Virus record (IMG/VR): IMGVR_UViG_3300029969_000011
Strand: one strand, 5' to 3'
From: a virus
Taxonomy: Duplodnaviria > Heunggongvirae > Uroviricota > Caudoviricetes
Length of the DNA: 64,000 bases
Made by a program: the position numbers and the translations under genes. The notes under the pieces are model-generated. The model was not told where the DNA came from and did not search any database. It was given only the letters and a program-made list of their open reading frames with translations. Shown in pieces: positions 7,579 through 55,762 of the stretch (positions within the stretch are counted from its first letter, which is position 1; each line of letters opens with the position of its first letter).

Positions 7579-9156
7579 TTAGTCTTCCTTCTTCTCGATT
7601 AACTTACTGCCGAGAACGCCACCGAGGATTGACTGAATGTCAATACCTGTTGAGCCCTTCAAGCCATCATTAACCTGATTGAGGGTTGTCATTATATCGC
7701 CTGTGAGCTTAGCTGTGTTACCTTCACCGTACATAGTGATTTTGTCAATCTGTGCCATAGGTGATGCGATTGCTCCAGCGATTGCAGGAAGCTGCTCGAA
7801 GTAAACCTTGAGTGCTTCAATCTGCATATCCATCTTAGCAGCGTCGCCGTACTGCTTCATAGCTTCAGCCTTCTTGAGGATACCCTCGGCTTCAGCCTCT
7901 GCCTTAGCAAGGAGAGCTGCCGCTTCAGCTTCACCCTTTGCCTTAATACCTGCTGCTTCAGCTTCCATAGCTGCCTGCTGTGCGAGAGCGGCTGCCTTAC
8001 GTGCCTCTGCCTTCTGCTGCTCTTCGTAAAGAGCTGCTTCTGCAGCGACCTTCTTAGCTTCTGCTTCACGCTCTGCCTGAACCTTCTGAGCCTCTGCCTG
8101 ACGCTCAATTTCGTTCTTCTTAGCTTCTGCTGACTTCTGACGCTCGAACAAGTCTGCTTCTGCCGCCTTCTGTGTTTCGATGAGACGAGCTTCAGCTTCC
8201 TGCTGTCTTGCGTACTTGTCTGCTTCTGCCTTCTTCTTGATTTCTGCTTCAAGAGCCTTCTCGGTGATGGCTACATTACGCTCCTTCAACTCGATTTCCT
8301 TTTCGAGCTTAGCAAGGTTTGCATCAGCGGTTGTAGTCTCAACAGTCTTACGCTGTTCCTGCTCCTGAATCTGGTATGCAGCGTCGGCTTCTGCCTTCTT
8401 GATGTCTGCCTGCTTCTTGAGTTCTGCCTTCTGAATAGCAAGCTCATTCTTCTTCTTAGCGATTTCTGTGTCTGCCGCAACCTGTGCATCGTTGGCATCC
8501 TTCTGTGCCTTAGCCTGAGCGATTGCGATTTCCTTTTCAGCATCTGCCTTAGCGATTGCCGCCTTCTTCTGAATCTTTACGGTATTGTCGATACCGAGGT
8601 TCTCGATAAGTCCCTGCTCATCAGAGAAATTCTGAACATTGAATGAAACAATTTCGAGACCCATAGCCCTGAAGTCAGGACCTGCATTTTCCGCAACCAT
8701 TTCTGCGAACTTCTTTCGGTCATTTACCATCTCTTCCAAGGTCATCTGACCGATGATTTCACGCATATTACCTTCAAGCACTTCTCGTGCTACCTTCGCG
8801 ATGTCTGTGACGTCCTTATTAAGGAAGTTCTCTGCCGCGATTGATAAAAGTTCTGGATTGCTGGATACCTTTACGTTTACATTACCATCAGCAATTACAT
8901 TGATGTAGTCTGCCGTTGGAACTGAGTTGGAAGTCTTTACGTCTATCTGAATTAACTGGAGAGTTAACTTATCCAATCTTTCGAGGAATGGAATCTTGAT
9001 AGATGACTTACCGATGACGGTCTTTTTACGAAGACCTGAGATGATGAATGCGGTGTCTGGCGGAGCCTTTACATAACCCGTCGCTATAATTACGATGAGT
9101 AAGATGATGGCGAGACCGCCGAGAATGAGTCCAAGATTAGCTAAAATTACTGACAT
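7579..9156 (-). CDS. flotillin-like SPFH/band-7 domain protein
   Basis: 525 aa; N-terminal TM, SPFH core, long Ala/Glu/Lys-rich coiled coil (EA repeats) typical of flotillin/YqiK. Confidence 0.65.
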   Translation of the reverse strand: MSVILANLGLILGGLAIILLIVIIATGYVKAPPDTAFIISGLRKKTVIGKSSIKIPFLERLDKLTLQLIQIDVKTSNSVPTADYINVIADGNVNVKVSSNPELLSIAAENFLNKDVTDIAKVAREVLEGNMREIIGQMTLEEMVNDRKKFAEMVAENAGPDFRAMGLEIVSFNVQNFSDEQGLIENLGIDNTVKIQKKAAIAKADAEKEIAIAQAKAQKDANDAQVAADTEIAKKKNELAIQKAELKKQADIKKAEADAAYQIQEQEQRKTVETTTADANLAKLEKEIELKERNVAITEKALEAEIKKKAEADKYARQQEAEARLIETQKAAEADLFERQKSAEAKKNEIERQAEAQKVQAEREAEAKKVAAEAALYEEQQKAEARKAAALAQQAAMEAEAAGIKAKGEAEAAALLAKAEAEAEGILKKAEAMKQYGDAAKMDMQIEALKVYFEQLPAIAGAIASPMAQIDKITMYGEGNTAKLTGDIMTTLNQVNDGLKGSTGIDIQSILGGVLGSKLIEKKED

Positions 9157-9751: not shown

Positions 9752-10684
9752 TTATCTGCTCTTAAGCATATCTCTTACGTATGTCATTGTAAGGCTACCG
9801 CAAATCTTACCAAAGTTCTCGCAAGCTGCGACTACCTCTGGCTCCTCCTTACGGCAATCCTCATACATCATCTTAGGAAGTACCTTTGCGATTGCTCCCA
9901 TATCGTGCTCGTCCCAATCAGGTCTAAGCTGACCCTCATCGACAAGCTTCTGAAGACACTTCTCAGTTCTACGAGCAGTTGCAACACTTGCTATGTACTG
10001 TCTCTCAGCCTCTCTCTTCTTGAGCTCCTCTGGGTCTACAGGCTTGTGATGGTCCTGATGAACCTCGGAAAACTTCTCTGCGACAATCTTAAGGTATGAA
10101 GGAGTTCTGCTGTTCTTGTTGTCAAGTCTGTCCTGAGACTTAATAACGACGCCCTCACCACAAGGCTCTGCGCCGAGCATAGACTGACCTACAAGCTGGT
10201 AAACAGTATCCCAACCTCTGAACTCACCTGTGTAGAAGATAGGAACAAAGTAGATTACCTGCTGAGTAAGCTGTACTGCGTTCTCAAGTCCCTTGAAGAT
10301 TGCGTATGTGTCCTCGTGAGGGAGGTACTCCTCTGTCTGAGTATCCCATACGTCGAACATATAGAAGTTCTTGTATCTGTTCTCAGGGTACTTGATTGTA
10401 TGCTTTGTAAGCCACTCGCCGAAGATTACATATCTGCCGTGCTGTGTAAGCATATCAATCTGAGAAACGTTGAGCTGCTGTGCCCAGTTCCAGAAACCGT
10501 TGAGTGTGTTAGCCTCATTAAGCTGGTTCTTACGAGAAAACGCAAGAACAGTATTTGTTGTGGGGTCATATGTGAATGATGCATTTGAGCCGTCAACCTT
10601 CTCGGTAATCGTTACCTGCTCACCGAGTGAAAAGACGGTATCATACTTCTCCTTGAAACGCTCGATATCTACATACTTTTTCAT
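9752..10684 (-). CDS. ATP-dependent RNA ligase (T4 Rnl2-like)
   Basis: 310 aa; N-terminus MKKY...; nucleotidyltransferase motif I TEKVDGSN (KxDG); size and layout like Rnl2. Confidence 0.65.
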   Translation of the reverse strand: MKKYVDIERFKEKYDTVFSLGEQVTITEKVDGSNASFTYDPTTNTVLAFSRKNQLNEANTLNGFWNWAQQLNVSQIDMLTQHGRYVIFGEWLTKHTIKYPENRYKNFYMFDVWDTQTEEYLPHEDTYAIFKGLENAVQLTQQVIYFVPIFYTGEFRGWDTVYQLVGQSMLGAEPCGEGVVIKSQDRLDNKNSRTPSYLKIVAEKFSEVHQDHHKPVDPEELKKREAERQYIASVATARRTEKCLQKLVDEGQLRPDWDEHDMGAIAKVLPKMMYEDCRKEEPEVVAACENFGKICGSLTMTYVRDMLKSR

Positions 10685-13516: not shown

Positions 13517-14359
13517 TCACTGTACATTCTCATTCCTCCAGATTTCGTCGCTTAACGCACGCTTAATGATGAGGAATTTCTGCTCGTCCATACTGTCAAG
13601 AACAGACTGGTCAAAGTTTAGACCCTCTTCTCTGTACTTAGCGAGCCAAGCATCTGCCTCTTCAACGATACGCTTACCAAGGTCCTTAGCCTGAGCCGCA
13701 GAGTAGTTGATTTGTCTATCCTTAACACCAAGGATTTCACCCCAGTATCTCTGCATATTCAAGTCTGAACCCTTAAATGGGTTAAGAATGTACGCGTAGT
13801 CTTCCTGCTTAAATTTTGAAAGCATAGCAAGCAATCTCATTTCGTGAGAGAGCTGCTTTGAAGCATAACCGTACTTCTCGACTTCCTCGACCTGAACTGG
13901 ATAAGGGTGGTCAAGAGCATTAAACTTTTCCTTAATCTGACCGACAATAGCCTTTAATGCAGACTCTTCATTTGCGTGTGCAATAGCGTCCCTATTAAGA
14001 ATAAACCAGAACATAGGGCTGTAATCTGGATTTACCCAGAACCAGTCTGAGTAAAGAAGCTCAACAAAGTTTGAAGAACCCTTCTTCCACTGGTCAACGA
14101 TAAGACGAATGTCCTTAACATCGACCTGACCGTTGAAAGGCATTTCTTCAACATGGCTTACAGGCTTTGAGTTGAATACAATATCCCTCAGTGAAGGAAC
14201 GACAACTGCCTTGTAATCGTAGTCACTCTTAGGTCGTCTCAGATTGTAGTTCTGAGCACCGTATAGAGCGATAAAGATTACATTAAAACCTCTTTTCTGA
14301 AGCTCCCTGACTGCAACGTGCATAAGCTCCTCTTCTGGCATTATCACTTTCTCGTCCAT
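13517..14359 (-). CDS. Pol-beta-superfamily nucleotidyltransferase (NTP_transf_2-like)
   Basis: YGAQNYNLRRPKSDYDYKAVV matches the hG[GS]x9-13Dh[DE]h nucleotidyltransferase signature. Confidence 0.4.
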   Translation of the reverse strand: MDEKVIMPEEELMHVAVRELQKRGFNVIFIALYGAQNYNLRRPKSDYDYKAVVVPSLRDIVFNSKPVSHVEEMPFNGQVDVKDIRLIVDQWKKGSSNFVELLYSDWFWVNPDYSPMFWFILNRDAIAHANEESALKAIVGQIKEKFNALDHPYPVQVEEVEKYGYASKQLSHEMRLLAMLSKFKQEDYAYILNPFKGSDLNMQRYWGEILGVKDRQINYSAAQAKDLGKRIVEEADAWLAKYREEGLNFDQSVLDSMDEQKFLIIKRALSDEIWRNENVQ

Positions 14360-14423: not shown

Positions 14424-14906
14424 TTAACTGTATCTGTAAGCTACAAAGATAACGTTATTCTCCTTCTCGACTTCTTCCAGTGTTTTCTTCATCACTGACC
14501 AGTCGCCGCCACCAAGACCGCAACCAAAAAGATAAGGAATAGCTATCGGCATCTGAGCGTAATCAGCAGGAATACATTCAAGTTCTCTGTAGCCGAGTAT
14601 CATATCAGTAAAACCGTCCTTTACTGCCTGATAATCTGTATAGCATTTATCTCTGCCATAGTCATCTTGACCAAAGATATTCCATATTTCGTGTCCATCT
14701 GCGGTCCAAGCACAACCTGTACCTAATGGAGACTTGTGATTGATAGCCCAGTATTCATCAATGAACTCCTTATAGACATCAAAGACTTCGGGATAGCGGT
14801 CTTTAATTGTCCTTGCTAAGCCGCCGCCCATAACTCCTCGACAGTTTACCTGATGAGCTATAATGTGTACGTCTGTATTTAAAACATCACCGTGGGTAAT
14901 TATCAT
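14424..14906 (-). CDS. macrodomain protein (ADP-ribose binding/hydrolase)
   Basis: GDVLNTDVHIIAHQVNCRGVMGGGLARTI aligns to the macrodomain GDI..vDvIVNAAN..l.GGGGV..AI motif; later GCGLGGGDW; start ATG 14906 with GGAGGAAG RBS. Confidence 0.6.
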   Translation of the reverse strand: MIITHGDVLNTDVHIIAHQVNCRGVMGGGLARTIKDRYPEVFDVYKEFIDEYWAINHKSPLGTGCAWTADGHEIWNIFGQDDYGRDKCYTDYQAVKDGFTDMILGYRELECIPADYAQMPIAIPYLFGCGLGGGDWSVMKKTLEEVEKENNVIFVAYRYS

Positions 14907-15202
14907 TCGTCTTCCTCCTTTATTCCATAATCGTCCCATTCCGCATCATCGGGAATCCAGGTCCAGCTATCTTCAAGGGCAGTTCGATAAGATGTAACAA
15001 CTACTCTGTGCTGCTTATATGCAACCGCATTTATATCAAAAGGATGGTCTAATATCCACTTGTCGATATAATCACCGAAGTCTTCTTCCTCAGATAGCTC
15101 ATAAAGATTTATAGGGCTTATAGGAGTATCCCTATCTTCAGGCTTTGCAAAGAACCATACCATTAATGTTCTCAATCGGTCAACCTCCAATTTATGTATC
15201 AT
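14903..15202 (-). CDS. hypothetical acidic protein
   Basis: 99-aa ORF. Confidence 0.4.
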   Translation of the reverse strand: MIHKLEVDRLRTLMVWFFAKPEDRDTPISPINLYELSEEEDFGDYIDKWILDHPFDINAVAYKQHRVVVTSYRTALEDSWTWIPDDAEWDDYGIKEEDE

Positions 15203-15393: not shown

Positions 15394-15463
15394 TCCTTTT
15401 CACTTTCTATAAATATTATATCATATATAATAAAAAAAGTCAAAGCTTTTATAGCTTTGACTC

Positions 15464-15730
15464 TTAGAAAATTTTGTACGGCGGCACTATAAGGTCGCAT
15501 CTACCCTCTCCGGACCAGTAAAATCTAATCCACGGTTTGGGTTTACGCCATTCGCCGCCCCAGCCTTCGCTGATTTTTATTTGCCTTAGTTTAAGTTCGT
15601 CCTTAATTTCAGAAGATAATGGTGGGATATATGCGTTAAAATATATTGTTACGCCACTATACCCATTACAACTTGCCTTATCAATCCAATATGCAAGATA
15701 CTGGTATTGAATATGGTTAATGAGCCCCAT
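15464..15730 (-). CDS. hypothetical protein
   Basis: 88 aa; GGAGGAATTG RBS. Confidence 0.4.
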   Translation of the reverse strand: MGLINHIQYQYLAYWIDKASCNGYSGVTIYFNAYIPPLSSEIKDELKLRQIKISEGWGGEWRKPKPWIRFYWSGEGRCDLIVPPYKIF

Positions 15731-15779
15731 TACAATTCCTCCATATAAAAAAAATAGAGCAGACTAACGTCTACTCTTT

Positions 15780-16346
15780 TAAAACGGTAGTTTTTAAGAA
15801 CACGATTGCCAGTCAATAGCCTTGACTGTTGGCTTAAACTGTAAAGTATAGCGCAATGCTTCCTTAACTGTTTTACTATCATTTGATTGTTCAAAAATAG
15901 TTGCTGATGCAATCGTAATATAAGAACTCGACTTCCTGCTGGGTCCACCAGACTTTTCCTTCCATTACCCTGAAGGGGGATAGGTTCTTATACCTATAAG
16001 CAAGTCGTCATGGTGACTAACCAGTGCCATACCATTTCAGATATGGGAATTTTACTATGACGTTTCCGACGCATCGGATTCGCCGTCACCCTGTCCGAAG
16101 ACCATAGGTGACTTCCTGTTATCTAAATTCATATCAAATCTATTATAGAAGATTGCTGATAGAAGTCGAAACCATTTTTTATTTTAACGAGGGCGCGGCA
16201 CCACGTCCTCATCTTGCTCAGTGAGCTTTCTTTATTTATAGGACGTTGCTCTACGTCCATTCTCTCGTAAGTCAATACGAAGACTATTGCCCTCGTACTG
16301 TTGTATTTATAAGTGGGATTTTACTCCCACCCATACAACATTTTCA
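15780..16346 (-). ncRNA. candidate structured non-coding RNA (possible Y-RNA-like partner of the TROVE protein)
   Basis: About 560 nt with no credible ORF (15730..15948 judged spurious), locally GC-richer with many short inverted repeats; ends in a hairpin + T-run terminator at about 15745-15780; directly downstream of the Ro60-like gene. Confidence 0.3.
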
Positions 16347-17828
16347 TTACTTCCAAGAATATACATCCTTAGAAAGTATCTTGACCATAGCCTCATAAGC
16401 ATTGCACTCGATGAGTTCTCTAAGGTCATTGAATGGACCTACACCAGAACCGCTGCAGTAACTGATGTTATCGTAGATAGTACCGATGTAGTTGTCCTGA
16501 CGTGCCTCAACATTCCAGCTTACGACCTTAGTCTCAGGGAGACCAGCCTCGCGAAGCTTCTTGTTCCACTTACCGACAATGGAGTCAGCAGTGTCTGGAC
16601 GTACGTCGTAGTCGAACTGACCGTCTGATATAACTACAAGAGCCTTTGGAACCTCGCGGGTTCTTACAGCAGTCTTATAGATAAGCTCGAAAGCCTTATC
16701 AAGGTTAGTGTTGTAACCCATGTCAGTTGACATTACCTTTCTAAGACACTCCTCAAGTCCCCAGCTATCCTCGAGGGATATGAAGTGAGGATTGTTAGTG
16801 AATGTCATATAAAGGTTGTGGTATGCACCCTTATTACGCTGAGCGAAGTAAGTTGCAAGACCAACAGAAGTTGCCATAGGCTGACCTAACATGGAGCCAG
16901 ATACATCTGCCATTACGACAACATCGTACTCTCCGCTAACGTAGTTAGGAAGAGCCTTCCACTGAGCTTCGTCTACAGGGTCAAGATGGTAACGAGAGCT
17001 ACCATACATATACTTGTACACGATGTCGTATGGGTAAAGAGTAGAAGCATTTACCTTAGCCTCGCCCTTTTCAAGGGAAGCCTTGTAAGCTGCAAATCTC
17101 TCCTGACAACGCTTGTTGTAAGTCTTGATATATCTGCTCATTGCAACAGATGGAACAGACTGGAAGTCTATCTCATCCCACTTACCAGCAGACATCTTTG
17201 TCTCGACGACGCCGATGTGTGCACGAAGCTTTGCAAGAGTCTTACGATATGTACGCTCGGTAAGACCGAGGTAACGACAAGCTCTACGACCAAGCTTACG
17301 AGTCTCCTGAGAAGAAGTATTGATAGATGGCATCCACTTAGCAAGGATGGAGATAGGCTGGTTCTTAGCCATACCCTCTGCATCAGCACGAAGCTGCTTG
17401 GAGATAAACTCCCATACCTTTGCCTCAATTACTGGATACTTTCCGTTAAGGAAGATGAAAAGGTCATCCCATCTACCTGTATCAACAATGGTCTGAAGAT
17501 TGCGGACAATCTTCTGAGGGTCGATACGACCGAGTTCTGCAAGCAGAATACGACCGATACGTCTCTCACCAAGACCACAGTCTCTGATGTTACGAGCGTA
17601 AAGGATAAGGTTATCTGCAAGAGTAGGGTTCTCCTGTCTTGCTGCCTTCCAATCGCTGATTATAGCGGAAGCATCTCTCTTTCTCATACCACCTATCTTT
17701 GCATAGATGTCAAGAAGAGCGCCGCCGTTTGTTGAACTATATGCGAGTCCACCGTTTTCGGTAAGTGTCTGATTAGCCATTGCCTTAGCTGCGTTTACGA
17801 AATTACTCATTACACATCTCTCCTTCAA
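16347..17828 (-). CDS. Ro60-like protein (TROVE-like helical N-terminal region + vWA domain)
   Basis: 493 aa; C-terminal vWA MIDAS VVVMADVSGSM (DxSxS); N-terminal ~300 aa helical region consistent with a TROVE module. Confidence 0.5.
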   Translation of the reverse strand: MKERCVMSNFVNAAKAMANQTLTENGGLAYSSTNGGALLDIYAKIGGMRKRDASAIISDWKAARQENPTLADNLILYARNIRDCGLGERRIGRILLAELGRIDPQKIVRNLQTIVDTGRWDDLFIFLNGKYPVIEAKVWEFISKQLRADAEGMAKNQPISILAKWMPSINTSSQETRKLGRRACRYLGLTERTYRKTLAKLRAHIGVVETKMSAGKWDEIDFQSVPSVAMSRYIKTYNKRCQERFAAYKASLEKGEAKVNASTLYPYDIVYKYMYGSSRYHLDPVDEAQWKALPNYVSGEYDVVVMADVSGSMLGQPMATSVGLATYFAQRNKGAYHNLYMTFTNNPHFISLEDSWGLEECLRKVMSTDMGYNTNLDKAFELIYKTAVRTREVPKALVVISDGQFDYDVRPDTADSIVGKWNKKLREAGLPETKVVSWNVEARQDNYIGTIYDNISYCSGSGVGPFNDLRELIECNAYEAMVKILSKDVYSWK

Positions 17829-17900
17829 GATAATTATTTTTGTTTGCTGTTTTTATCTTACTTATATATTATACTATAAAATATAATTTTTGTCAAATAT

Positions 17901-18455
17901 TTAATTGCACCTGTCTTCGTAAAAGGTTGCTACCCTACGAAAAATAGAGTCTGGCGCCGCCACAAATTCCTTCTGCCACTCTCTTTTGAAAGTTTTGAAG
18001 TATTCATCGACTTCCATATCGCCGAAAACATAAACTCTTATATTATTTCGTCTTGAGAAAACTTGTCTATGATAGACTATCTCCTTAAAGACTTCTAAGT
18101 CTCGCTTATCCTTAATCGAAATCGTAAGTCCATCAATGCCCCAGAGGTTCTTTTCTCTTTTATAAAGATACTCATATAACTCATAAGCATTGGTATAAAC
18201 ATACACCTTTTTGATATTAGGATAAGTTCCTTTTAAAAAGGAAGCTGTCATACAAGGGTCTGCATATGCAAATGGTTCGCCGCCCGTCAAGAAAATGTTT
18301 TCAGCTTCTTCAAGCTCTTCATTCGTAACGACGGGAATTTCATTTACATTATACTGCTTATTGCAACAAAGCGGGCAATTTCTATCACAACGATTTGTAA
18401 TCATTATGTGAATATTACGCTTCGTTATATCTGTCTTTTCATTTAATTGAGCCAT
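17901..18455 (-). CDS. radical SAM activase, NrdG-like (anaerobic RNR activating protein) or QueE-like
   Basis: 184 aa; CDRNCPLCCN = CxxxCxxC followed by CN as in NrdG (CPGCYN); GGEP motif. Confidence 0.5.
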   Translation of the reverse strand: MAQLNEKTDITKRNIHIMITNRCDRNCPLCCNKQYNVNEIPVVTNEELEEAENIFLTGGEPFAYADPCMTASFLKGTYPNIKKVYVYTNAYELYEYLYKREKNLWGIDGLTISIKDKRDLEVFKEIVYHRQVFSRRNNIRVYVFGDMEVDEYFKTFKREWQKEFVAAPDSIFRRVATFYEDRCN

Positions 18456-18695
18456 TTAAACTCGTCCTTTCCATTTGATTTTCTATAAATATTATACTAT
18501 ATTTTATAAAAAAAGTCAAATTTTTGAGGGAAAAATAAGGGCAACGTCGCAACGCTACCCTTACTCAGCTTTCGCTGATGGTATCAATTTAAACACGATA
18601 GGTTTGTGGCGGACCGCCGCCTGTATAAACGGGGGAGTCGAACCCCACGTAACCAATTTCTGAGGGTTTACATTTGGTTTGCTGAACTATCGTTA

Positions 18696-18787
18696 TGGCG
18701 ACGAAGTGAGGTGTCGAGCCCCATACCGCTCATCACGGTACCAACTGCTTTCAAGGCAGTGCTCAAGGCCGCTTGAGATACTCCGCC
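18696..18787 (-). tRNA. tRNA-Ser (anticodon TGA), class II
   Basis: CCA+G73; T-arm; long variable arm (taccg/cggta); anticodon loop reads tttcaag on plus strand (codon TCA); acceptor pairs with two G-U. Confidence 0.5.
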
Positions 18788-18999
18788 ATTATCAAGATAC
18801 GTTTTTTTCTCGTGCCTCTGCCAATTGGGCTACTCCCCGATATGCTGCCCGAGACAGGAATCGAACCGTTACCCTCCGCCTTCTTCAGGCGGCGTGCACA
18901 CCTATGCACTACAAGGGCAGTCTGGTCGGGGAGGATGGGATTCGAACCCACACTCATCGTGCTCCTAACGCATTAATTGAGTAGCTGACGTATCTTTAT

Positions 19000-19075
19000 T
19001 GGTGCCGAGGGGGAGAGTCGAACTCCCTACGCCAAGCTCTTCAGGCTTGCGCTCTACCAGTTGAGCTACCTCGGC
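19000..19075 (-). tRNA. tRNA-Phe (GAA)
   Basis: Perfect cloverleaf: acceptor gccgagg/cctcggc, T-arm gggag-agtcgaa-ctccc, anticodon loop tcttcag (codon TTC), CCA encoded. Confidence 0.75.
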
Positions 19076-19208
19076 ATTATCAAGACAGTTATACTTATAA
19101 ACTCTACCCGTTGAGCTACGCGACGCGAACGCCACGGTGGGATTCGAACCCACATCCCCCTTTGTGCAAAAAAGAAAAAGTTTTAAGTGTTTTGCTGAAC
19201 TGCCTTAT

Positions 19209-19285
19209 TGGTCGGGGCGGTGGGATTCGAACCCACAGAATCGTGATTTTGAGTCACGCACGTTTACCAGTTACGTCACGCCCCG
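19209..19285 (-). tRNA. tRNA, anticodon CAA (Leu-type anticodon) with class I (short variable arm) body
   Basis: Perfect acceptor cggggcg/cgccccg, T-arm, D-arm acgt-ttaccagtt-acgt; anticodon loop ttttgag (codon TTG); 5-nt variable loop. Confidence 0.55.
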
Positions 19286-19412
19286 ATATAAAATGCAAAA
19301 TATGAAGAGGATACCACACCCTGCAGAGGCCCATATTTATTTATATCCCGCACCATAAGCTTCTTCGCGCTTCAATCCGTCGACTGTCCTCATGGCCATC
19401 CGTGCGGTTTTC

Positions 19413-19488
19413 TGGGTGGAAAGATGAGATTCGAACTCACACCTTCATGGGCCACAACCATGCGCTCTACCATTAAGCTACTCACCAC
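19413..19488 (-). tRNA. tRNA-His (GTG)
   Basis: Anticodon loop gccacaa (codon CAC); extra 5' G-1 and C73 discriminator + CCA characteristic of tRNA-His. Confidence 0.7.
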
Positions 19489-19595
19489 ATCAATTCCGAC
19501 TTTAACCCAAGTCGGCAGGGTTAAATAAAACCAAATCTGCCTCCACACAGTGGAGTTAGCTGTAGACAATAGCACTGAACATAACTATTCCTACT

Positions 19596-19671
19596 TGGTC
19601 TCGGTTATAGGACTCGAACCTATGACTTTCTCCTTGTAAGGGAGACACTCTCGCCGCTGAGTTAAACCGAG
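19596..19671 (-). tRNA. tRNA-Val (TAC)
   Basis: Perfect acceptor ctcggtt/aaccgag, T-arm atagg-actcgaa-cctat, anticodon loop ttgtaag (codon GTA). Confidence 0.7.
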
Positions 19672-19698
19672 ATTATCAAGACTCTCTATACCTTGCGG

Positions 19699-19772
19699 TT
19701 CCGGAAGGGGGATTCGAACCCCCATATGTACGATTTTAGGTCGTATGACTTAGCCACTTTGTCTATTCTGGA
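19699..19772 (-). tRNA. tRNA-like, anticodon region TAA with irregular loop (C33?)
   Basis: T-arm ggggg-attcgaa-ccccc, acceptor tccggaa/ttctgga; anticodon stem tacga/tcgta with loop ttttagg. Confidence 0.35.
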
Positions 19773-19920
19773 AAGGAATATTGCTGAAGAGTCTTTATTT
19801 GGTTCGGGTATGCTTATCGGAGTCAAGTACTCGCAGTTCCTCTTTCGAGGTATTTTCTTCGGAGTAAAGACCTTAAGGTTCGCGTAACCTCTCGTGCCCT
19901 AACCCATATCCGAAACCCGA

Positions 19921-19997
19921 TGGTGCCGTTAGAGGGACTCGAACCCACACTAACCAGTTCCTAAGACTGGCGCCTCTGCCAATTGGGCTATAACGGC
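19921..19997 (-). tRNA. tRNA, anticodon TAG (Leu-type anticodon) with class I, Gln-like body
   Basis: Perfect acceptor gccgtta/taacggc + CCA, anticodon stem ccagt/actgg loop tcctaag (codon CTA), 5-nt variable loop, 3-bp D-stem. Confidence 0.5.
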
Positions 19998-20061
19998 ATT
20001 GTTAAACAGTTCGAGTTACGGTCAAACTGAAGGTAAGCACCGATTAAGCAGCCAGATACTC

Positions 20062-20292
20062 CTATTCAGAATAATCAAGCTTTTCAATTCTTTTCATATC
20101 GGAATATGTAACCTGCTTCCAACCACTCTTAGGGTGGTTAAAGGCACACATCCAGCAGGAACAATGAATTTTACCTTTGGCTAACTTTCCGTCGCAATCA
20201 CAAAACCAATGATGAGTTTCATCAATGATATGTCTTTTGCGAGCTATGTGTTGTCTTCTCTGATAACGATAGTATGCTCTATCTCTTTCCAT
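20062..20292 (-). CDS. Arg-rich zinc-finger protein inside the tRNA array
   Basis: 76 aa; basic N-terminus, HxxxC...CxC...CxxC cluster. Confidence 0.4.
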   Translation of the reverse strand: MERDRAYYRYQRRQHIARKRHIIDETHHWFCDCDGKLAKGKIHCSCWMCAFNHPKSGWKQVTYSDMKRIEKLDYSE

Positions 20293-20432
20293 TGTGCCGC
20301 CCTCCGAAAAATTATAATAACGAATATAGGCAACCCACTACTTACTTTCCTTACCAGCGTAAATTAAGCACCTTCGCTACGTATTGCTACTACCTCAGTA
20401 TTTAATTTACTATGCCCTTCCCTCGATATTCG

Positions 20433-20975
20433 TTACTTAGTAATTCTGTTTGCGATACCAGAAGCAGCGTAGCTGTCTGGCTTGATAGCAACCTCGAAGC
20501 CGCAAGTCTTAATCCAAGAGGTAATCTCAGTAATAAGCTGATTTGTCTTACCTGCGTGACCAATGTCAGCGTGGACAGCGAAAGTAAATCTTCCGTCATT
20601 AGACATTTGCTCAAGGTCAATATCATAGTCGATAAGAGCATAAGCAAGAGCATCTACGAAACCTGTTGCGTTCTCAATAGAACGAGAAGTCTCTTCCTGT
20701 ATCTTAGTCTTAAGAACTCTTATCTTTGGTATATCTTGCTTGCGATAGAAGAAAATGCCGCCATCACCGATACGGTGAACAGCAATTACTTCCACCATTC
20801 TTGTGCACTTGTGGTTCTGGCTATCTGTACCCACAGTTATTTCGTATGAGGCGTTAGGTGCCTTTGCGATGTAGTCGGCTACAATAGAGCCTATCTGTGA
20901 ATAACGAACCTTCTCACCATTACCACGAGTAAATATCTTCTCGGTAATCACGGTTAATCTCTCCTTTATATTCAA
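20433..20975 (-). CDS. YkuK/DUF458-like RNase H-fold protein
   Basis: 180 aa; VGTDSQ and AVHADIGH motifs resemble the GTDSQ/HADSN signatures of the YkuK family. Confidence 0.4.
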   Translation of the reverse strand: MNIKERLTVITEKIFTRGNGEKVRYSQIGSIVADYIAKAPNASYEITVGTDSQNHKCTRMVEVIAVHRIGDGGIFFYRKQDIPKIRVLKTKIQEETSRSIENATGFVDALAYALIDYDIDLEQMSNDGRFTFAVHADIGHAGKTNQLITEITSWIKTCGFEVAIKPDSYAASGIANRITK

Positions 20976-21107
20976 ATATTCAAGACAGTTATGTTAGCTA
21001 CCTTTTGATTAAAATTCAAATGCTTTTAAAGAATTGCTGGACTGTCTTAGTGGTGATAATACGTGCCGCGGCACCACAGACCGCTATATGTGGTCGCACG
21101 TATTCTC

Positions 21108-21194
21108 TGGTCGGCTCGGTGGGACTCGAACCCACACGCCCTTGCGGGCACCAGCTCCTTAGGCTGGCGCGTCTGCCAATTCCGCCACGAGCCG
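21108..21194 (-). tRNA. tRNA-Leu (anticodon AAG), class II
   Basis: 87 nt; perfect acceptor cggctcg/cgagccg + CCA; long variable arm gccc-ttg-cgggc; anticodon loop tccttag (codon CTT). Confidence 0.55.
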
Positions 21195-21262
21195 ATTTAT
21201 CAAGACTCATCTTGTGTTTTTATATGCCCAAAAAACTTTCAGAGTTGCTGCTGAGTCTTATC

Positions 21263-21339
21263 TGGTCGGAGATGCGGGACTCGAACCCACGGCCTCTCGC
21301 TCCCAAGGCGAGCGCTCTACCAAACTGAGCTAATCCCCG
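21263..21339 (-). tRNA. tRNA-Pro (TGG)
   Basis: Anticodon stem ctcgc/gcgag, loop tcccaag (codon CCA); D-arm gctc-taccaaact-gagc; CCA encoded. Confidence 0.65.
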
Positions 21340-21409
21340 ATTAATTGGCGGCTTCAGGGACGCTACAAGATAACCAACCGCCAGAGTTATCACGCACTTA
21401 ATGTCCCAA

Positions 21410-21486
21410 TGGTCGGCGAGATGGGATTCGAACCCACACTGAATGGATTTTAAGTCCATTGCCTCTGCCTGTTGCGCTACTCGCCG
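21410..21486 (-). tRNA. tRNA, anticodon TAA (Leu-type anticodon) with class I body
   Basis: Perfect acceptor cggcgag/ctcgccg + CCA; anticodon stem atgga/tccat loop ttttaag (codon TTA); 5-nt variable loop. Confidence 0.5.
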
Positions 21487-21606
21487 ATAAGCCTATTAAA
21501 TAGGCTACAAGATATAACCCCTTTTACCGCGGGGCAGTCTCCCCAATATAATTGGTTGGGGAGATAGGAATTGAACCTACAAAAGTGAGTTGCTGATATA
21601 TCTTAG

Positions 21607-21683
21607 TGGTCACGCCAGCGAGGCTCGAACTCGCATTTTAGCCTTGAAAGAGCTACTTCCTACACCTGTTAGAAGATGGCGCG
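21607..21683 (-). tRNA. tRNA-Glu (TTC)
   Basis: T-arm gcgag-gctcgaa-ctcgc, anticodon loop ttgaaag (codon GAA), CCA encoded. Confidence 0.6.
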
Positions 21684-21835
21684 ATTCATCAAGATGTGCT
21701 TTTACCTCTCATGAGGATTTGAACCTTACCGTCCCCTTTTTGGGGCTGTGCTACCAGATTACACCATAACGCCGAGAGGATTTAAAATGGCGGCGTTAAA
21801 AACTTTAAAGAAAAAGTTGCTGACACATCTTTATT

Positions 21836-21909
21836 TGGTTGCGCAGACAGGACTCGAACCTATATCAACGGATAATGACTCCGTTATGCTACCTTTGCAC
21901 TACCGCGCG
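21836..21909 (-). tRNA. initiator tRNA-fMet (CAT)
   Basis: Anticodon loop taatgac (anticodon CAT); 5' CGCGCGG / 3' CTGCGCAACCA with C1·A72 mismatch, as in bacterial initiator tRNA. Confidence 0.6.
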
Positions 21910-22760
21910 TTCTCTTTATTTTCTATAATTATTATAGCATAAATTATAAAAAATGTCAAATTTTTGATTTCTAAGTCATTTCGTAAGCACTCTCACCGCG
22001 TGAAGGTAGACTTAATTGAGAGTATTTCTTCAACAATCTTGGGTGCCGCCACATCTCCTGCACACAGGAGACAGGGTACTCGAACCCCTCCATCGCCAGT
22101 TGCTGAAAGGAATTTCAACCTAATCTCATTAGTTATAAAGCCACTGAGCTGTAGCTATGCGAATAATTTGCCGCAATCAACGGGCGACTATTCTAATCGC
22201 CGTCATAACCAACACAAGTTATGAACCATTGTAATGTCGTCAGGTTCCCACACTTACGCAGTAAACGCGCCGCTTAACCACTTGGTTTAGGTATGTTCAT
22301 AACCAAGAAATTTTCCCTTTTACATCGTCAGCAGTAGATGTCGTAATTTTATCGGTACTTCCCCGAATGGACATTGCGTGCCTATCGTACTCACGGTAAT
22401 GTACGTAACCGCTGCCGTGCCAGCCAATACACGGATTTATACTGCCATCACACAGTCGGGCAGGTCTGTGATGGGTCTCTGCCCAATTTGGTTTTTGTGG
22501 TTTTAAACAGTCCAATGAGTAAACCTCAACTCAACTGTAGAGAATATTTGGTGGTTCGCTCTCTCTCAGCGAAGGTGTAAAGGGAGTTTAAACCACTTCC
22601 TCGTGGGGTTTTAACGTCTTTTCCTTGACAAGTCTCGCCGCAACCAGTACCATTTAAGGTACGCCAATCACTACGGGTTGCACATCCTTACTTTACCTGC
22701 CCAACAGGTCGGCGGTTGGACCCGCCAGTGTCCCTTTTATTCTCTTTAAGTAATTGGCAA

Positions 22761-22835
22761 TGGTGTGGGATAGGAGAATCGAACTCCCACCGCCTGTTTG
22801 GAAGACAGGAATACTGACCGTTATACGAATCCCAC
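22761..22835 (-). tRNA. tRNA-Gly (TCC)
   Basis: Perfect acceptor gtgggat/atcccac + CCA; anticodon stem cctgt/acagg, loop ttggaag (codon GGA). Confidence 0.65.
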
Positions 22836-23045
22836 ATTAGTTCTTATTTTTAAGTATAATTTATTATAACATATTCTAAGAAAAAAGTCAAATTTTTAAT
22901 AGTGATTGTCTTTGTAGGGGTCTGTCTTCTTCTTATCATGGGTTGCGGCGATGATGTCTGGCATAACCTCTATGAGCTTCCAAAGAAGTACGGTTACGCA
23001 AACAACTATTAGGTACTGCATCAGACAGACCTCCTTTCAAGACAT

Positions 23046-23120
23046 TGGTTTCTCCGCTTGGATTCGAACCAAGGAATGGCAGTTTTAGAGACTGCTGTCT
23101 TAAGCCTCTTGACGACGGAG
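23046..23120 (-). tRNA. suppressor tRNA, anticodon CTA (reads TAG); tRNA-Gln-like body
   Basis: Perfect acceptor ttctccg/cggagaa + CCA; T-arm cttgg-attcgaa-ccaag; anticodon stem gcagt/actgc, loop tttagag = C-U-CUA-A-A; 3-bp D-stem, variable loop CATTC as in E. coli tRNA-Gln. Confidence 0.7.
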
Positions 23121-23125
23121 AATTA

Positions 23126-23201
23126 TGGTTGCCGCTCTGGGAATCGAACCCAGTAAGACGGAGTTAGAGTCCGTTGTCCTCGCCAACTAAACGAAGCGGC
23201 A
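23126..23201 (-). tRNA. second suppressor tRNA, anticodon CTA (reads TAG)
   Basis: Perfect acceptor tgccgct/agcggca + CCA; T-arm ctggg-aatcgaa-cccag; anticodon stem acgga/tccgt, loop gttagag (anticodon CUA); 3-bp D-stem. Confidence 0.65.
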
Positions 23202-23342
23202 AAATTCTCCAAGACGCCTTTACATTTACCTTTTAAACATTTTAAGTGTTCTATTGTAAGAAATGATTGCAGGATGCGTCTTTCATTCTTATAAAATAAT
23301 TATAACATATTTTATAAAAATTGTCAAATTTTTGAGTGCTTA

Positions 23343-23606
23343 TTAGTCTACAGCAGTTGTAGTAGTTGTCTCTGTTGTAGTCTCTTCTGCCTCAGTTTCT
23401 GTGGTAGTAGTTGTTTCTTCGGTAGCCTCAGTTGTCTCCTCTGCTACTGTTGTAGCTTCAGTTGTTTCAGCTTCTGTTGTTTCAACTTCTGTTGTAACTA
23501 CTGTTGTGGTTTCACTGTTGCTTCCGCTATCCTTTGATGTATCGCAAGAAACAAAAGTTACAGCCATAGCGCCTGCCATAAGACAAGCTAAAATAGCCTT
23601 CTTCAT
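23343..23606 (-). CDS. small secreted lipoprotein, Thr/Glu-rich
   Basis: 87 aa; signal peptide + TFVSC lipobox-like; (ETT)n low-complexity tail; located inside tRNA array. Confidence 0.45.
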   Translation of the reverse strand: MKKAILACLMAGAMAVTFVSCDTSKDSGSNSETTTVVTTEVETTEAETTEATTVAEETTEATEETTTTTETEAEETTTETTTTTAVD

Positions 23607-23949
23607 TGTGTTTCACCTCTTTGCTTTTTAAATAAGAACCCTTGCTTGTATATCGAAACCTCGTATTATATCCACAGTCACATCGTGATTTACTCCCACA
23701 CAAGAGGGCTACCATGGAGAAGGGGCACGCCCCGAGATGGGCGGCAATAATCATAGAACGCTATACGAAAAGCATAACGTACTAAGGAACTCTTTCCACA
23801 CGTGGTGGATGAGCTATCGTATTTCTACGACCCCGCACAGCGGGTAGAAGTCATAATGACCTCTTAACAGTAATTTTGATTGAGCCGCGTTTCCTCTTTT
23901 AAGTCTGACTAACTGCGGTAAAAAATCCAGACTTCAAAATTACTTTTAA

Positions 23950-24043
23950 GAAATCATTATGGCGCGGTCGGGGAGACTCGAACTCCCACACCGATTGCTC
24001 GATTACTCATAGTTTAGCAAACTACTGCCTTACCAAATTAGGC
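23950..24043 (-). tRNA. tRNA-Ser (GCT), class II
   Basis: CCA + G73; perfect acceptor gcggtcg/cgaccgc; long variable region; anticodon loop ttagcaa (codon AGC). Confidence 0.5.
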
Positions 24044-24188
24044 TTACGACCGCATTATCAAGATACGTTTTTTCGATATACGTTGTTCTACCAGTTGAAC
24101 TACTCCGCCATATTGGCGACGGAGGCAGGACTTGAACCTACACCTACGGCGTGATAGGCAATCTATTGCTTGCTGACGTATCTTAGTT

Positions 24189-24266
24189 TGGTGTGCCTGA
24201 TGGGACTCGAACCCATGACCCCCTGATTAAAAGTCAGGTGTTCTATGCCAACTGAACTACAGGCAC
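24189..24266 (-). tRNA. tRNA-Lys (TTT)
   Basis: Perfect cloverleaf; acceptor gtgcctg/caggcac; anticodon loop ttaaaag (codon AAA). Confidence 0.75.
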
Positions 24267-24366
24267 ATTAACATCCGCTGAGCATCTTATTGGAACGCTT
24301 TCACCATGCGAGACCTCTATTGTTTATTTGCTGGCAGAATTTGAACCATTAACCATAGCGAATATT

Positions 24367-24442
24367 TGGTGGGACGCCTGAGATTCGAACTCAGATAAGC
24401 TCGGTTATGAGCCGAGTGCACTAACCATTGTACTAACGTCCC
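24367..24442 (-). tRNA. elongator tRNA-Met (CAT) or tRNA-Ile2 (CAT, lysidine)
   Basis: T-arm ctgag-attcgaa-ctcag; anticodon stem ctcgg/ccgag, loop ttatgag (anticodon CAT). Confidence 0.6.
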
Positions 24443-24490
24443 ATTAAAGAAAGGAAAGGGGCATACTTTCAAGATGGCTATGCCAGACCA

Positions 24491-24564
24491 CTAAGTTATT
24501 GGCTTCGGCAAAGGGAGTCGAACCCCTATCAACAGAGCCAAAATCTGTTGTCCTACCATTAGAC
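24491..24564 (-). tRNA. tRNA-Gln (TTG)
   Basis: G73 + CCA; anticodon stem acaga/tctgt, loop gccaaaa (codon CAA); 3-bp D-stem GTC/GAC. Confidence 0.65.
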
Positions 24565-24601
24565 GATACCGAAATCTATGGAGTCATAAAGACTCCAAAT
24601 A

Positions 24602-28681: not shown

Positions 28682-28683
28682 AT

Positions 28684-40610: not shown

Positions 40611-40703
40611 TTTGCTATATCCCTCCCAAAAAATTTCACTATTTAAATAAGGTATCATACCTTATATTATAATATTAACATAAATTTTGAAAAAAGTCAA
40701 ATA

Positions 40704-45358: not shown

Positions 45359-45435
45359 TTATTATGACCTCCTATCATAGTGTGCCGCCCCTCAGATTTT
45401 TAGAAGGGCGGCGCATTTAATTTATATTATTCTCT

Positions 45436-55717: not shown

Positions 55718-55762
55718 CTGCTGACCGCTTGAAGGAAGATTACTTGAACTTGAAAGCTCTCC

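What the first reader, a model, noticed from the sequence alone, without database searches (positions are those of the whole stretch)
15731..17828. Ro60-like TROVE–vWA protein adjacent to a ~560-nt terminator-bounded non-coding tract (candidate Y-RNA-like RNA)
The 493-aa protein has a clear vWA MIDAS (DVSGSM) C-terminal domain after a ~300-aa helical region, the Ro60/Rsr architecture. Immediately downstream on the same strand (15780-16346) is the only long protein-free tract outside the tRNA array. It is locally GC-richer, with numerous short inverted repeats, and ends in an intrinsic terminator just before the next gene's RBS. Bacterial and phage Rsr orthologs are typically encoded next to Y-RNA-like RNAs with a tRNA-like module.
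Basis: inference. Interest (0 to 1): 0.6.

Follow-up and report, generated by a model that had tools for sequence, protein, structure and literature searches.

The report
Phage Ro60-like protein with modular partner RNA
A stop-codon-recoded phage encodes a ring-shaped Ro60-like RNA-binding protein, followed by a ~600-base structured non-coding RNA built from the same "helix + CAGCAA" module that recurs around this protein's gene in very different phages, making it a probable new variant of a Ro60/Y-RNA particle.

Summary

The tract matches no Rfam Y_RNA, YrlA, ROOL or GOLLD model and has no tRNA-like module. Its only Rfam match is a sub-threshold 6A motif. Its two large domains are each closed by a 9-10 bp helix followed by AUCAGCAA. 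The same signature marks at least 8 spacer elements in the upstream tRNA array, several of them permuted-tRNA, YrlA-like. It also marks the gene's own 5' leader and small hairpins flanking DUF2828 genes in Mycobacterium, Bacillus, Listeria, Staphylococcus and E. coli phages (21 modules against 2.9 expected).

I read the tract as an unusually large Y-RNA-like partner without a tRNA module, inside an RNA-repair and tRNA locus. Binding is inferred, not shown. It is a new variant of a known kind.

The parts
17868..17896 (-). Promoter-like site (TTGACA-17-TATAAT, 12/12) for the Ro60-like transcription unit
   Evidence: conserved upstream of the gene in L001, L015 and L051
17826..17860 (-). 5' leader mini-module. 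Helix UAAGAUAA/UUAUCUUG with a loop containing ACAGCAAAC; the 3' strand abuts the RBS AAGGAGAG (17825-17818)
   Evidence: conserved in L001, L002, L015, L051, L055; analogous modules sit just upstream of the gene in L028, L040, L039, L041
16347..17828 (-). Ro60-like protein gene (DUF2828 + vWA/MIDAS). Probable true start is the ATG at 17810 (487 aa)
16274..16339 (-). Two hairpins right after the stop codon: H0 16339-16300 (loop GUAAAA) and H1 16299-16274 (loop GCAAUAG). Both are conserved in all relatives that have a tract
   Evidence: H1 has 2 compensatory pairs
16166..16263 (-). Insert specific to the window lineage, with two 6A-motif-like hairpins (RF02925: 16263-16216 at 36.5 bits, gathering 41.2; 16214-16166 at 22.3 bits). 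The tail of the second hit overlaps the start of domain 1
   Evidence: absent from the L020/L022/L035 lineage
15927..16170 (-). Domain 1. Multi-helix domain closed by UUCGACUUCU (16170-16161) / GGAAGUCGAG (15936-15927), followed by AUCAGCAAU (16160-16152). It includes hairpin P5 (16046-16027, loop UGAAAU) and a GGGUAA-loop hairpin followed by AAAAGUC
15801..15917 (-). Domain 2. Three-hairpin domain closed by UACGAUUGC (15917-15909) / GCAAUCGUG (15809-15801), followed by AUCAGCAAC (15908-15900). It is a paralogue of the tRNA-array spacer element at about 18693-18595
15748..15796 (-). Hairpin UUAAAAAC-UACC-GUUUUAA (coordinates approximate), then an intrinsic terminator (15777-15756) with a U8 run. 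The RBS and ATG of an 88-aa ORF follow at once
18595..24185 (-). tRNA array (19 tRNAs) whose spacers carry at least 8 'helix + CAGCAA' modules. Approximate spans: 24185-24059, 21831-21691, 21605-21508, 21260-21201, 21049-20981, 19795-19678, 19207-19081, 18996-18794, 18693-18595. Several contain a T-arm, an acceptor-like hairpin and a D-arm in permuted (YrlA-like) order

Best explanation
The gene encodes a phage Ro60-like RNA-binding protein: a TROVE-type helical ring plus a vWA/MIDAS domain, in sequence family DUF2828/phrog_850. One promoter (17896-17868) probably drives a transcript that holds a short leader hairpin, the gene, and a ~600-nt non-coding RNA ending at the terminator 15777-15756.

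The RNA is modular. It has two conserved 5' hairpins, a lineage-specific insert resembling the 6A motif, and two multi-helix domains. Each domain is closed by a 9-10 bp helix immediately followed by AUCAGCAA.

That 'helix + CAGCAA' unit is the common denominator of the small RNAs encoded around DUF2828 genes. These include the YrlA-like permuted-tRNA mimics in this phage's tRNA array, the gene's own leader, and ~60-nt hairpins next to the gene in phages of five bacterial genera.

I infer three things. First, this unit is the docking site of the Ro60-like protein. Second, the tract is a large Y-RNA-like partner lacking a tRNA module (YrlB-like in concept), whose inserted domains recruit or mimic other factors. 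Third, the particle acts in quality control, repair or protection of tRNA and other RNA during infection, together with the RNA ligase, kinase/HD phosphatase, nucleotidyltransferase and macro-type phosphatase encoded nearby. A leader module abutting the RBS would allow autoregulation.

Shown here: the fold, the non-coding status, the conserved structure, the shared signature and its strand- and locus-specific enrichment. Inferred: co-transcription, protein binding, and function.
For: Protein.
- DUF2828 E 1.9e-32 and DUF7788/vWA; phrog_850 'RNA-binding protein' E 1e-113.
- AlphaFold2 model pLDDT 90.5.
- Foldseek top 5 are all Ro60/TROVE, E 2e-8 to 1e-4, about 500 aligned columns.
- MIDAS residues are invariant.

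RNA.
- No ORF, z -9.4, terminator.
- A divergent homologue exists in L020/L022/L035 (nhmmer E 6e-21).
- Independent MFE folds of the two lineages give the same architecture.
- On 6 helices and 48 pairs: 99% of cells are paired, 12 pairs changed on both sides, 0 of 500 shuffles reach this, and slid controls give 0-2.

Signature.
- Window 15-26 kb, minus strand: 10 modules against 0.35 expected (maximum 3 in 100 shuffles). Opposite strand: 0. Rest of window: 2 against 1.7.
- Ten diverse DUF2828 loci: 21 against 2.9 on the gene strand, 2 against 3.2 on the opposite strand.
- Tandem modules abut the gene in the Listeria, Staphylococcus, Mycobacterium, Bacillus and Felix-O1-like E. coli phages sampled, one phage per genus.
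- In Moostard the middle module is the YrlA-like RNA downstream of the 'Ro-like' gene (37.9 bits).
- Domain 2 is a paralogue of an array spacer module.

Context and literature.
- RNA ligase, AAA_33+HD, RlaP-like nucleotidyltransferase and phosphatase genes lie nearby.
- Phage Ro60 with Y-like RNAs is documented (PMC4201824, PMC12135203). TROVE proteins in phage RNA-repair contexts are described in PMC7824862.
Against: - Rfam YrlA and Y_RNA do not match the tract at E<=10.
- The tract has no T-arm or D-arm.
- The bacterial Ro-binding motif GNCGAA(N)G does not sit next to the closing helices. A GGCGAAU occurs inside one hairpin but is not conserved in place in the other lineage.
- The A-rich run (AAAAAC) that precedes the 3' strand of most small modules is missing in both tract domains.
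- Close relatives with 79-81% identical protein have almost no tract (L015, L051), so the RNA is dispensable for the protein.
- Only two independent lineages, plus a reduced third, are available. The helices tested were hand-picked from MFE folds.
- No expression or binding data exist.
- The helix + CAGCAA unit could equally be an RNase processing signal.
Confidence: 0.5

Rival explanations
1. The helix + CAGCAA unit is a processing or punctuation signal, for example a cleavage site for RNase III, RNase E or the RNase H-like protein encoded in the array. It would be used to cut tRNAs and small RNAs out of long transcripts. On this view the tract is simply two more units of that processing system, and the Ro-like protein is only a neighbour.
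For: In the tRNA array the modules lie exactly between a tRNA 3' end (ACCA-AAUA) and the next tRNA 5' leader (GAUAAU). An RNaseH_like (PF04308) gene sits inside the array here and in relatives. The tract domains lack the A-rich 3' element.
Against: The modules also occur next to DUF2828 genes where no tRNA is within several kb (L028, L040). They occur in tandem directly abutting the gene in Listeria and Staphylococcus phages. One sits in the gene's own leader. Enrichment follows the DUF2828 locus and its strand.
Confidence: 0.2
2. The tract is an independent large 'ornate' RNA of the ROOL/GOLLD kind, which are phage-borne and lie near tRNAs. Its function would be unrelated to the Ro-like protein.
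For: About 600 nt long, highly structured, in a phage next to a tRNA array. ROOL averages 581 nt and is often near tRNAs and in phages (PMC5737381).
Against: No ROOL or GOLLD match even at E<=10 with permissive filters on a 901-base search. The tract splits into two separately closed domains carrying the locus-wide CAGCAA signature. It varies greatly in length among close relatives (145 to about 870 nt, or absent), unlike a conserved large fold.
Confidence: 0.1
3. The tract is a cis-acting 3' UTR or leader. It would stabilise the Ro-like mRNA and control read-through of the terminator at 15777-15756 into the 88-aa ORF (15464-15730), which has no promoter of its own.
For: The terminator is followed at once by an RBS and ATG. 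The next promoter comes only after that ORF (15443-15415). The ORF co-occurs with the tract in the window lineage and the L020 lineage, and with a shorter RNA in L002.
Against: L001, L019 and L030 have a 308-nt version of the RNA without the ORF. About 600 nt with two closed multi-helix domains is far more than an attenuator needs. No alternative terminator/antiterminator pairing was seen.
Confidence: 0.12
4. The tract is decaying remnants of tRNA-array spacers and has no function.
For: It is variable or absent among close relatives. In L035 its 3' end is replaced by tRNA fragments.
Against: Twelve compensatory pair changes and 99% pairing maintained between lineages. Loop sequences are conserved (UGAAAU, GGGUAA, GCAAUAG).
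Confidence: 0.05

Closest known systems
Bacterial and mycobacteriophage Ro60 (Rsr) with YrlA/YrlB Y RNAs (Chen et al. 2014, PMC4201824; Rfam RF02553)
   Same: A Ro60-fold protein with vWA/MIDAS, encoded next to structured small RNAs whose 5' and 3' ends form a closing helix. Some of these RNAs carry a permuted tRNA-like domain (here in the tRNA array). The locus sits among RNA-repair genes. In Mycobacterium phage Moostard, a 36%-identical 'Ro-like RNA binding protein' gene is followed by a YrlA-like RNA.
   Different: The protein is in the DUF2828 sequence family, not Pfam TROVE. The tract is about 600 nt against about 100 nt. It has no tRNA-like module and scores nothing with RF02553. The motif next to the closing helix is CAGCAA rather than GNCGAA(N)G. 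There are at least 10 modules rather than 1-2.
Thermus phage phiLo Ro60 with Yrl1/Yrl2 (PMC12135203; PDB 9KOP, 9L5Y)
   Different: Sequence identity is only 14-17%. The phiLo Yrls are small RNAs that the authors picked out by a CGAA motif. No tRNA array, and no large multi-domain RNA.
ROOL and GOLLD large phage-associated RNAs (PMC5737381)
   Same: Size class (~580 nt), phage context, proximity to tRNA genes, function unknown.
   Different: No covariance-model match. The tract is modular, with length varying between relatives, and it shares a signature with the small RNAs of the locus.
6A RNA motif (Rfam RF02925)
   Same: The hairpin with loop GUAGAGCA followed by GAAAGCUCACUGAG at 16263-16216 matches nearly the whole 52-nt model (36.5 bits, E 3e-5 in the local search).
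   Different: It falls below the gathering score of 41.2. It covers only 48 of about 600 nt and occurs only in the window lineage. The biology of 6A is unknown to me, and the paper's supplement was not available.

Membership tests
Ro60 / TROVE-vWA proteins | Ring of helical (HEAT-like) repeats with the TROVE fold | tested here: met
Ro60 / TROVE-vWA proteins | Sequence match to Pfam TROVE or to solved Ro60 chains | tested here: not met
   Pfam returns DUF2828, DUF7788, VWA_2 and VWA only. phmmer and a 43-sequence profile find no Ro60 chain in the PDB.
Ro60 / TROVE-vWA proteins | C-terminal vWA domain with a MIDAS motif (DxSxS...T...D) | tested here: met
Ro60 / TROVE-vWA proteins | Binds Y RNAs or misfolded RNAs | not testable with these tools
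   Needs RIP, EMSA or a structure.
DUF2828 / phrog_850 phage 'RNA-binding protein' | Full-length profile match | tested here: met
   PF11443 E 1.9e-32. phrog_850 E 1e-113 over residues 7-492. 707 phage records hold homologues.
YrlA Y-RNA-like (Rfam RF02553): the tract | Covariance-model score at or above the gathering score (69 bits) | tested here: not met
   No YrlA or Y_RNA match at E<=10 in 15600-16500.
YrlA Y-RNA-like (Rfam RF02553): the tract | tRNA-like domain (T-arm, D-arm, acceptor-like stem) | tested here: not met
   No ARAGORN or Rfam tRNA signal in the tract. No GGUUCRANYCC hairpin by eye.
YrlA Y-RNA-like (Rfam RF02553): the tract | Closing helix of the 5' and 3' ends carrying the Ro-binding motif GNCGAA(N)G | tested here: inconclusive
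   Closing helices are present and covary, but they are followed by AUCAGCAA. GGCGAAU lies inside an internal hairpin and is not conserved in place.
YrlA Y-RNA-like (Rfam RF02553): the tract | Encoded next to a Ro60 orthologue on the same strand | tested here: met
   The tract starts 1 nt after the stop codon.
YrlA Y-RNA-like: spacer elements of the tRNA array | Model score and permuted tRNA-like layout | tested here: inconclusive
   24056-24168 scores 33.4 bits (E 2e-4) and 19101-19157 scores 31 bits, both below 69. By inspection the order is T-arm, 7-bp acceptor-like stem with GCCA, then D-arm.
Helix + CAGCAA module (defined here) | A helix of 8 bp or more, CAGC[AU]A within 0-3 nt of the 5' strand, on the gene strand, at a DUF2828 locus | tested here: met
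   Both tract domains qualify. Enrichment is 10 against 0.35 and 21 against 2.9, with 0/100 shuffles reaching the observed count in each test.
Helix + CAGCAA module (defined here) | A-rich run (AAAAAC-like) just before the 3' strand | tested here: not met
   Present in most small modules but absent in tract domains 1 and 2.
6A motif (RF02925) | Score at or above the gathering score (41.2 bits) | tested here: inconclusive
   36.5 bits with full model coverage at 16263-16216; a second copy scores 22.3 bits.
ROOL / GOLLD | Covariance-model match | tested here: not met
   None at the gathering threshold on the whole window, and none at E<=10 on the tract.

The most novel reading that the evidence does not exclude
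DUF2828-type phage Ro60 proteins recognise an RNA module that I could not find described: a closing helix followed by CAGCAA, usually with an A-rich 3' side. The module is conserved from mycobacteriophages to Felix-O1-like, P100-like and staphylococcal phages. It would serve as a portable scaffold into which different 'passenger' RNAs are inserted: permuted tRNA mimics, a whole tRNA-like gene, or, in this window, two large non-tRNA domains. A copy in the gene's own leader, next to the RBS, would give feedback control.
Probability: 0.35. Interest if true: 0.7.

Novelty: new variant of a known kind. Interest (0 to 1): 0.55.

Why it matters
Ro60/Y-RNA particles are known in animals, bacteria and a few phages, but what phage versions do is barely understood. 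This locus suggests three things.

- The very common phage 'DUF2828 / RNA-binding protein' family (707 phage records) is a Ro60 by fold.
- It comes with its own recognisable RNA module. The module is also present in phages of laboratory hosts sampled here (a Felix-O1-like E. coli phage, a Pecentumvirus of Listeria and a staphylococcal phage), so protein-RNA binding can be tested directly.
- The module can carry very different inserts, including a ~600-nt two-domain RNA.

The finding also ties Ro60-like proteins to phage tRNA arrays and RNA-repair enzymes in a stop-codon-recoded phage, where tRNA integrity should be critical.

Tried and rejected
- **Rfam searches.** The gathering threshold on the whole window gave only tRNAs. 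At E<=10 on the tract there was no Y_RNA, YrlA, ROOL, GOLLD, OLE, RNase P or intron match. A passing resemblance of AAAAGUC(C/U)GG to RNase P CR-I was dropped for that reason.
- **Missed TAG-recoded gene.** All frames of the tract are stop-rich. A 132-141-codon TAG-readthrough frame in L020/L022 is shifted by a 1-nt indel between those two loci and is broken by TAA/TGA in the window.
- **72-aa GTG ORF 15730-15948.** It runs through the terminator and is not conserved, so it was rejected.
- **blastn of the tract against 50,697 phage genomes.** No match.
- **Pattern scans of IMG/VR for conserved tract blocks.** Either no match or two chance hits.
- **Pattern scan of 185,579 species genomes.** It gave 54 hits, most in one conserved protein-coding region of Bacteroidota and the rest scattered. 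None shows similarity to the tract beyond the pattern block.
- **Structure-aware alignment.** The MAFFT X-INS-i and Q-INS-i modes are not installed. Plain MAFFT misregisters several helices. Covariation was therefore counted on extracted helix strands.
- **Covariance model of the ~60-nt module.** Abandoned because MAFFT would not keep the 3' strands in register. A permutation test was used instead.
- **Aligning CAGCAA to the YrlA GNCGAA position through the Rfam model.** The model aligns only the tRNA-like core reliably, so no conclusion was drawn.
- **A promoter-like TCGACT-16-TATAAT inside the tract (16169-16142).** It is not conserved in the other lineages and is treated as coincidence.
Full report
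**Setting**

The window is part of a large phage genome that reassigns TAG.
- Long late genes at 39.4-56.4 kb carry up to 17 in-frame TAG codons each, while the early region has almost none.
- Two tRNAs with a CUA anticodon lie at 23046-23201.
- Nearly all genes up to 57 kb are on the minus strand.
- The finding lies just downstream, in transcription order, of a 19-tRNA array at 18844-24573.

**The protein**

The ORF 16347-17828(-) is real. Its start is probably the ATG at 17810, giving 487 aa. An AAGGAGAG RBS lies at 17825-17818, and homologues begin MSNF and are 483-487 aa long.

By sequence the protein is not a recognisable TROVE protein.
- Pfam gives DUF2828 (E 1.9e-32) plus DUF7788/vWA, not TROVE.
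- PHROGs gives phrog_850 'RNA-binding protein' (E 1e-113).
- HMMER against PDB sequences finds no Ro60, either with the single sequence or with a 43-sequence profile.

By fold it is a Ro60.
- The AlphaFold2 model has mean pLDDT 90.5 and pTM 0.89.
- The five best Foldseek matches are all Ro60/TROVE structures aligned over about 500 columns: phiLo TROVE 9KOP (E 2.3e-8), Xenopus Ro 1YVR, phiLo Ro60 9L5Y, D. radiodurans Rsr 2NVO and human Ro60 9NEN.
- The MIDAS residues D308, S310, S312, T374 and D402 are invariant in 43 homologues.

The family is common. It occurs in 707 phage records, including mycobacteriophages where it is annotated 'Ro-like RNA binding protein' (36% identity), and in Bacillus, Listeria, Staphylococcus, Campylobacter and Felix-O1-like enterobacterial phages. 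The protein half of the finding is therefore right in substance and is not new.

**The tract is non-coding and structured**

- All six frames of 15731-16346 are broken by TAA/TGA, even with TAG read through.
- The minus strand folds to -193 kcal/mol against -146 +/- 5 for shuffles (z -9.4). The plus strand gives z -6.2.
- A terminator (9-bp stem, U8) lies at 15777-15756. The RBS and ATG of an 88-aa ORF follow directly.
- A perfect consensus promoter lies upstream of the Ro-like gene (17896-17868), and no terminator separates the gene from the tract. Co-transcription is likely but is inferred.
- The GC content of the tract (0.396) is barely above the window mean of 0.383.

**Comparative evidence**

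- Near-identical copies occur in L014, L017 and L018.
- A divergent lineage (L020, L022, L035; protein 81-84% identical) has a homologous tract that lacks window tract positions about 78-172 (nhmmer E 6e-21).
- L001, L019 and L030 carry a reduced 308-nt version. It keeps the first hairpin, the domain-1 closing helix followed by UUCAGCAAU, a GGGURA-loop hairpin and AAAGUC.
- Other close relatives have only 75-160 nt after the gene (L015, L051, L052, L054, L055).
- L002 has a ~100-nt RNA with a 16-bp stem.
- L003 has a 680-870-nt tract that starts with a T-arm-containing element.
- The position after the gene is therefore a variable RNA slot.

Independent MFE folds of the window and of L020 give the same architecture. 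On six helices extracted from both lineages (48 pairs), the counts are as follows.

| Measure | Result |
|---|---|
| Cells paired | 99% |
| Pairs changed on both sides | 12 |
| Shuffles reaching this | 0 of 500 |
| Same measure in slid registers | 0-2 |

Two caveats apply. Effectively only two lineages are compared, and the helices were hand-picked.

**What it is not**

- Rfam finds no Y_RNA, YrlA, ROOL, GOLLD or other large-RNA match in the tract, even at E<=10.
- The only notable hit is the 6A motif at 16263-16216 (36.5 bits against a gathering score of 41.2), with a weaker tandem copy. Both lie in the insert specific to the window lineage.
- There is no tRNA-like module.
- Searches of phage genomes, IMG/VR and one genome per bacterial species found no further tract homologues.

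**The link to Y-like RNAs**

Sub-threshold YrlA matches occur inside the tRNA array, not in the tract. They lie at 24056-24168 (33.4 bits, E 2e-4) and 19101-19157 (31 bits).

Reading those spacers shows a repeated design.
- A 9-10 bp closing helix, typically UAAGAnnnn / nnnnUCUUG.
- CAGCAA directly after the 5' strand.
- Inside, a T-arm, a 7-bp acceptor-like hairpin (with GCCA in one case) and a D-arm in permuted order. This is the hallmark of YrlA (PMC4201824).
- One module (18996-18794) even holds a complete tRNA-Leu-like sequence in the loop of its acceptor-like stem.

Both large domains of the tract have the same base.
- Domain 1 is closed by UUCGACUUCU / GGAAGUCGAG, followed by AUCAGCAAU.
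- Domain 2 is closed by UACGAUUGC / GCAAUCGUG, followed by AUCAGCAAC.
- Both closing helices covary between lineages.
- Domain 2 is a sequence paralogue of the array spacer at about 18693-18595 (nhmmer E 1.4e-3).
- The leader of the Ro-like gene is itself a mini-module (17860-17826). Its 3' strand abuts the RBS, and it is conserved in relatives.

**Statistics and generality**

Modules were counted with fixed criteria: a helix of at least 8 bp with at most 1 G-U pair, CAGC[AU]A within 3 nt of the 5' strand, and a span of at most 260 nt. Expected values come from 100 dinucleotide-preserving shuffles.

| Region | Modules observed | Expected |
|---|---|---|
| Window 15-26 kb, minus strand | 10 | 0.35 (maximum 3) |
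| Window 15-26 kb, plus strand | 0 | 0.29 |
| Other 46 kb of window, minus strand | 2 | 1.7 |
| Ten diverse DUF2828 loci, gene strand | 21 | 2.9 (0/100 shuffles reach 21) |
| Ten diverse DUF2828 loci, opposite strand | 2 | 3.2 |

Individual phages show the following.

| Phage (locus) | Modules |
|---|---|
| Listeria phage LP-083-2 (L113) | Three in tandem, 74-280 nt upstream of the gene |
| Staphylococcus phage S-CoN_Ph6 (L114) | Three in tandem immediately downstream |
| Mycobacterium phage Moostard (L056) | Three downstream; the middle one is the YrlA-like RNA (37.9 bits) |
| Bacillus phage Tsamsa (L057) | Two between the tRNA array and the gene |
| Felix-O1-like E. coli phage warpig (L112) | In the first tRNA spacers after the gene |

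Most small modules also have an A-rich run before the 3' strand. The two tract domains do not.

The Rfam scans of several of these loci reported no family over the small modules. I found no description of them in the searchable literature, but that search is limited.

**Context**

The window encodes several RNA-repair-type enzymes.
- An RNA ligase (PF09414, 9752-10684).
- A kinase-like AAA_33 + HD phosphohydrolase (27776-28699).
- A RlaP-like nucleotidyltransferase (13517-14359).
- A macro-type phosphatase (phrog_335, 14424-14939).
- An RNase H-like protein (20433-20975) inside the array.

This matches the published view of TROVE proteins as RNA-repair platforms with tRNA-like partners in large phages (PMC7824862). 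It also fits the demonstrated binding of phage phiLo Ro60 to Y-like RNAs, with ternary complexes formed together with host PNPase (PMC12135203).

**Interpretation**

Established here:
- a Ro60-fold protein;
- a conserved, structured, non-coding ~600-nt RNA directly after it;
- a locus-wide, strand-specific RNA module shared by that RNA, by YrlA-like tRNA mimics, by the gene's leader, and by small hairpins next to homologous genes in distant phages.

Inferred:
- the module is the protein's binding site;
- the tract is therefore an oversized Y-RNA-like partner without a tRNA module;
- the particle works on tRNA or other RNA quality control or repair.

The main rival is that the module is an RNase processing signal. 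Lesser rivals are an independent ornate RNA, a cis-regulatory 3' UTR or leader for the 88-aa ORF, and decaying spacers.

**Verdict**

This is a new variant of a known kind (phage Ro60 with Y-like RNAs). The generalisable by-product is the helix + CAGCAA module, which can be tested directly in cultured phages that carry it.

Noticed in passing
window 39451-56419 (late genes); tRNAs 23046-23122 and 23126-23201: TAG is reassigned. Large late ORFs carry 4-17 in-frame TAG codons while early genes carry none, and two tandem tRNAs have a CUA anticodon (ARAGORN labels them 'Pyl').
   Followed up: partly
window 18794-18996 (-): A helix + CAGCAA module has a tRNA-like domain that is split. A 3' half (T-arm + CCUCCCCG-ACCA) and a 5' half (CGGGGAG + D-arm) flank a complete tRNA-Leu(AAG)-like sequence (18844-18919), which sits in the loop of the acceptor-like stem.
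   Followed up: partly
window 17826-17860 (-): The leader of the Ro-like gene is itself a mini helix + CAGCAA hairpin that ends at the RBS. It is conserved in L001, L002, L015, L051 and L055, which suggests feedback control.
   Followed up: partly
window 18700-18787 (-): A type-II tRNA-like sequence (anticodon loop CUUGAAA, apparently Ser-UGA) is missed by ARAGORN. Rfam scores it as tRNA-Sec at 43.2 bits, below the gathering score of 47. Relatives have a tRNA-Ser(UGA) at this position.
   Followed up: no
window 15464-15730 (-); L002 5613-5863: An 88-aa ORF of unknown family lies between two terminators with no promoter of its own. Its homologue in L002 contains an in-frame TAG, which is unusual for the early region.
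   Followed up: no
window 15415-15465 and 18491-18519 (-): Strong terminator hairpins whose descending arm (TTGACT) doubles as the -35 box of a consensus promoter. This 'terminator-promoter' cassette is reused between transcription units here and in L001, L002 and L015.
   Followed up: no
window 9752-10684, 13517-14359, 14424-14939, 20433-20975, 27776-28699 (-): A set of RNA-repair-type genes: RNA ligase (PF09414), RlaP-like nucleotidyltransferase, macro-type phosphatase (phrog_335), RNaseH_like (PF04308) inside the tRNA array, and AAA_33 kinase + HD phosphohydrolase.
   Followed up: partly
window 17901-18455 (-): A small (184 aa) radical-SAM-like protein with CxxxCxxC lies between the tRNA array and the Ro-like gene, and is conserved there in L015 and L016. 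It could be an NrdG-like activase, since an NrdD-like ORF runs off the window end at 63111-64000, or an RNA-modifying enzyme.
   Followed up: no
L035 1060-1235: In this relative the 3' end of the tract is replaced by tRNA-like fragments (a T-arm GUAGGUUCGAAUCCUAC, then the start of a type-II tRNA). This hints at recombination between tract and tRNA-array modules, or at a chimeric assembly.
   Followed up: no
L114 5034-5381 (Staphylococcus phage S-CoN_Ph6): Tiny 'hypothetical protein' CDSs are annotated over the three tandem helix + CAGCAA hairpins downstream of the DUF2828 gene. They are probably mis-annotated non-coding RNAs.
   Followed up: no
window 7579-9156 (-): A 525-aa SPFH/Band-7 + flotillin-like protein encoded by the phage.
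   Followed up: no
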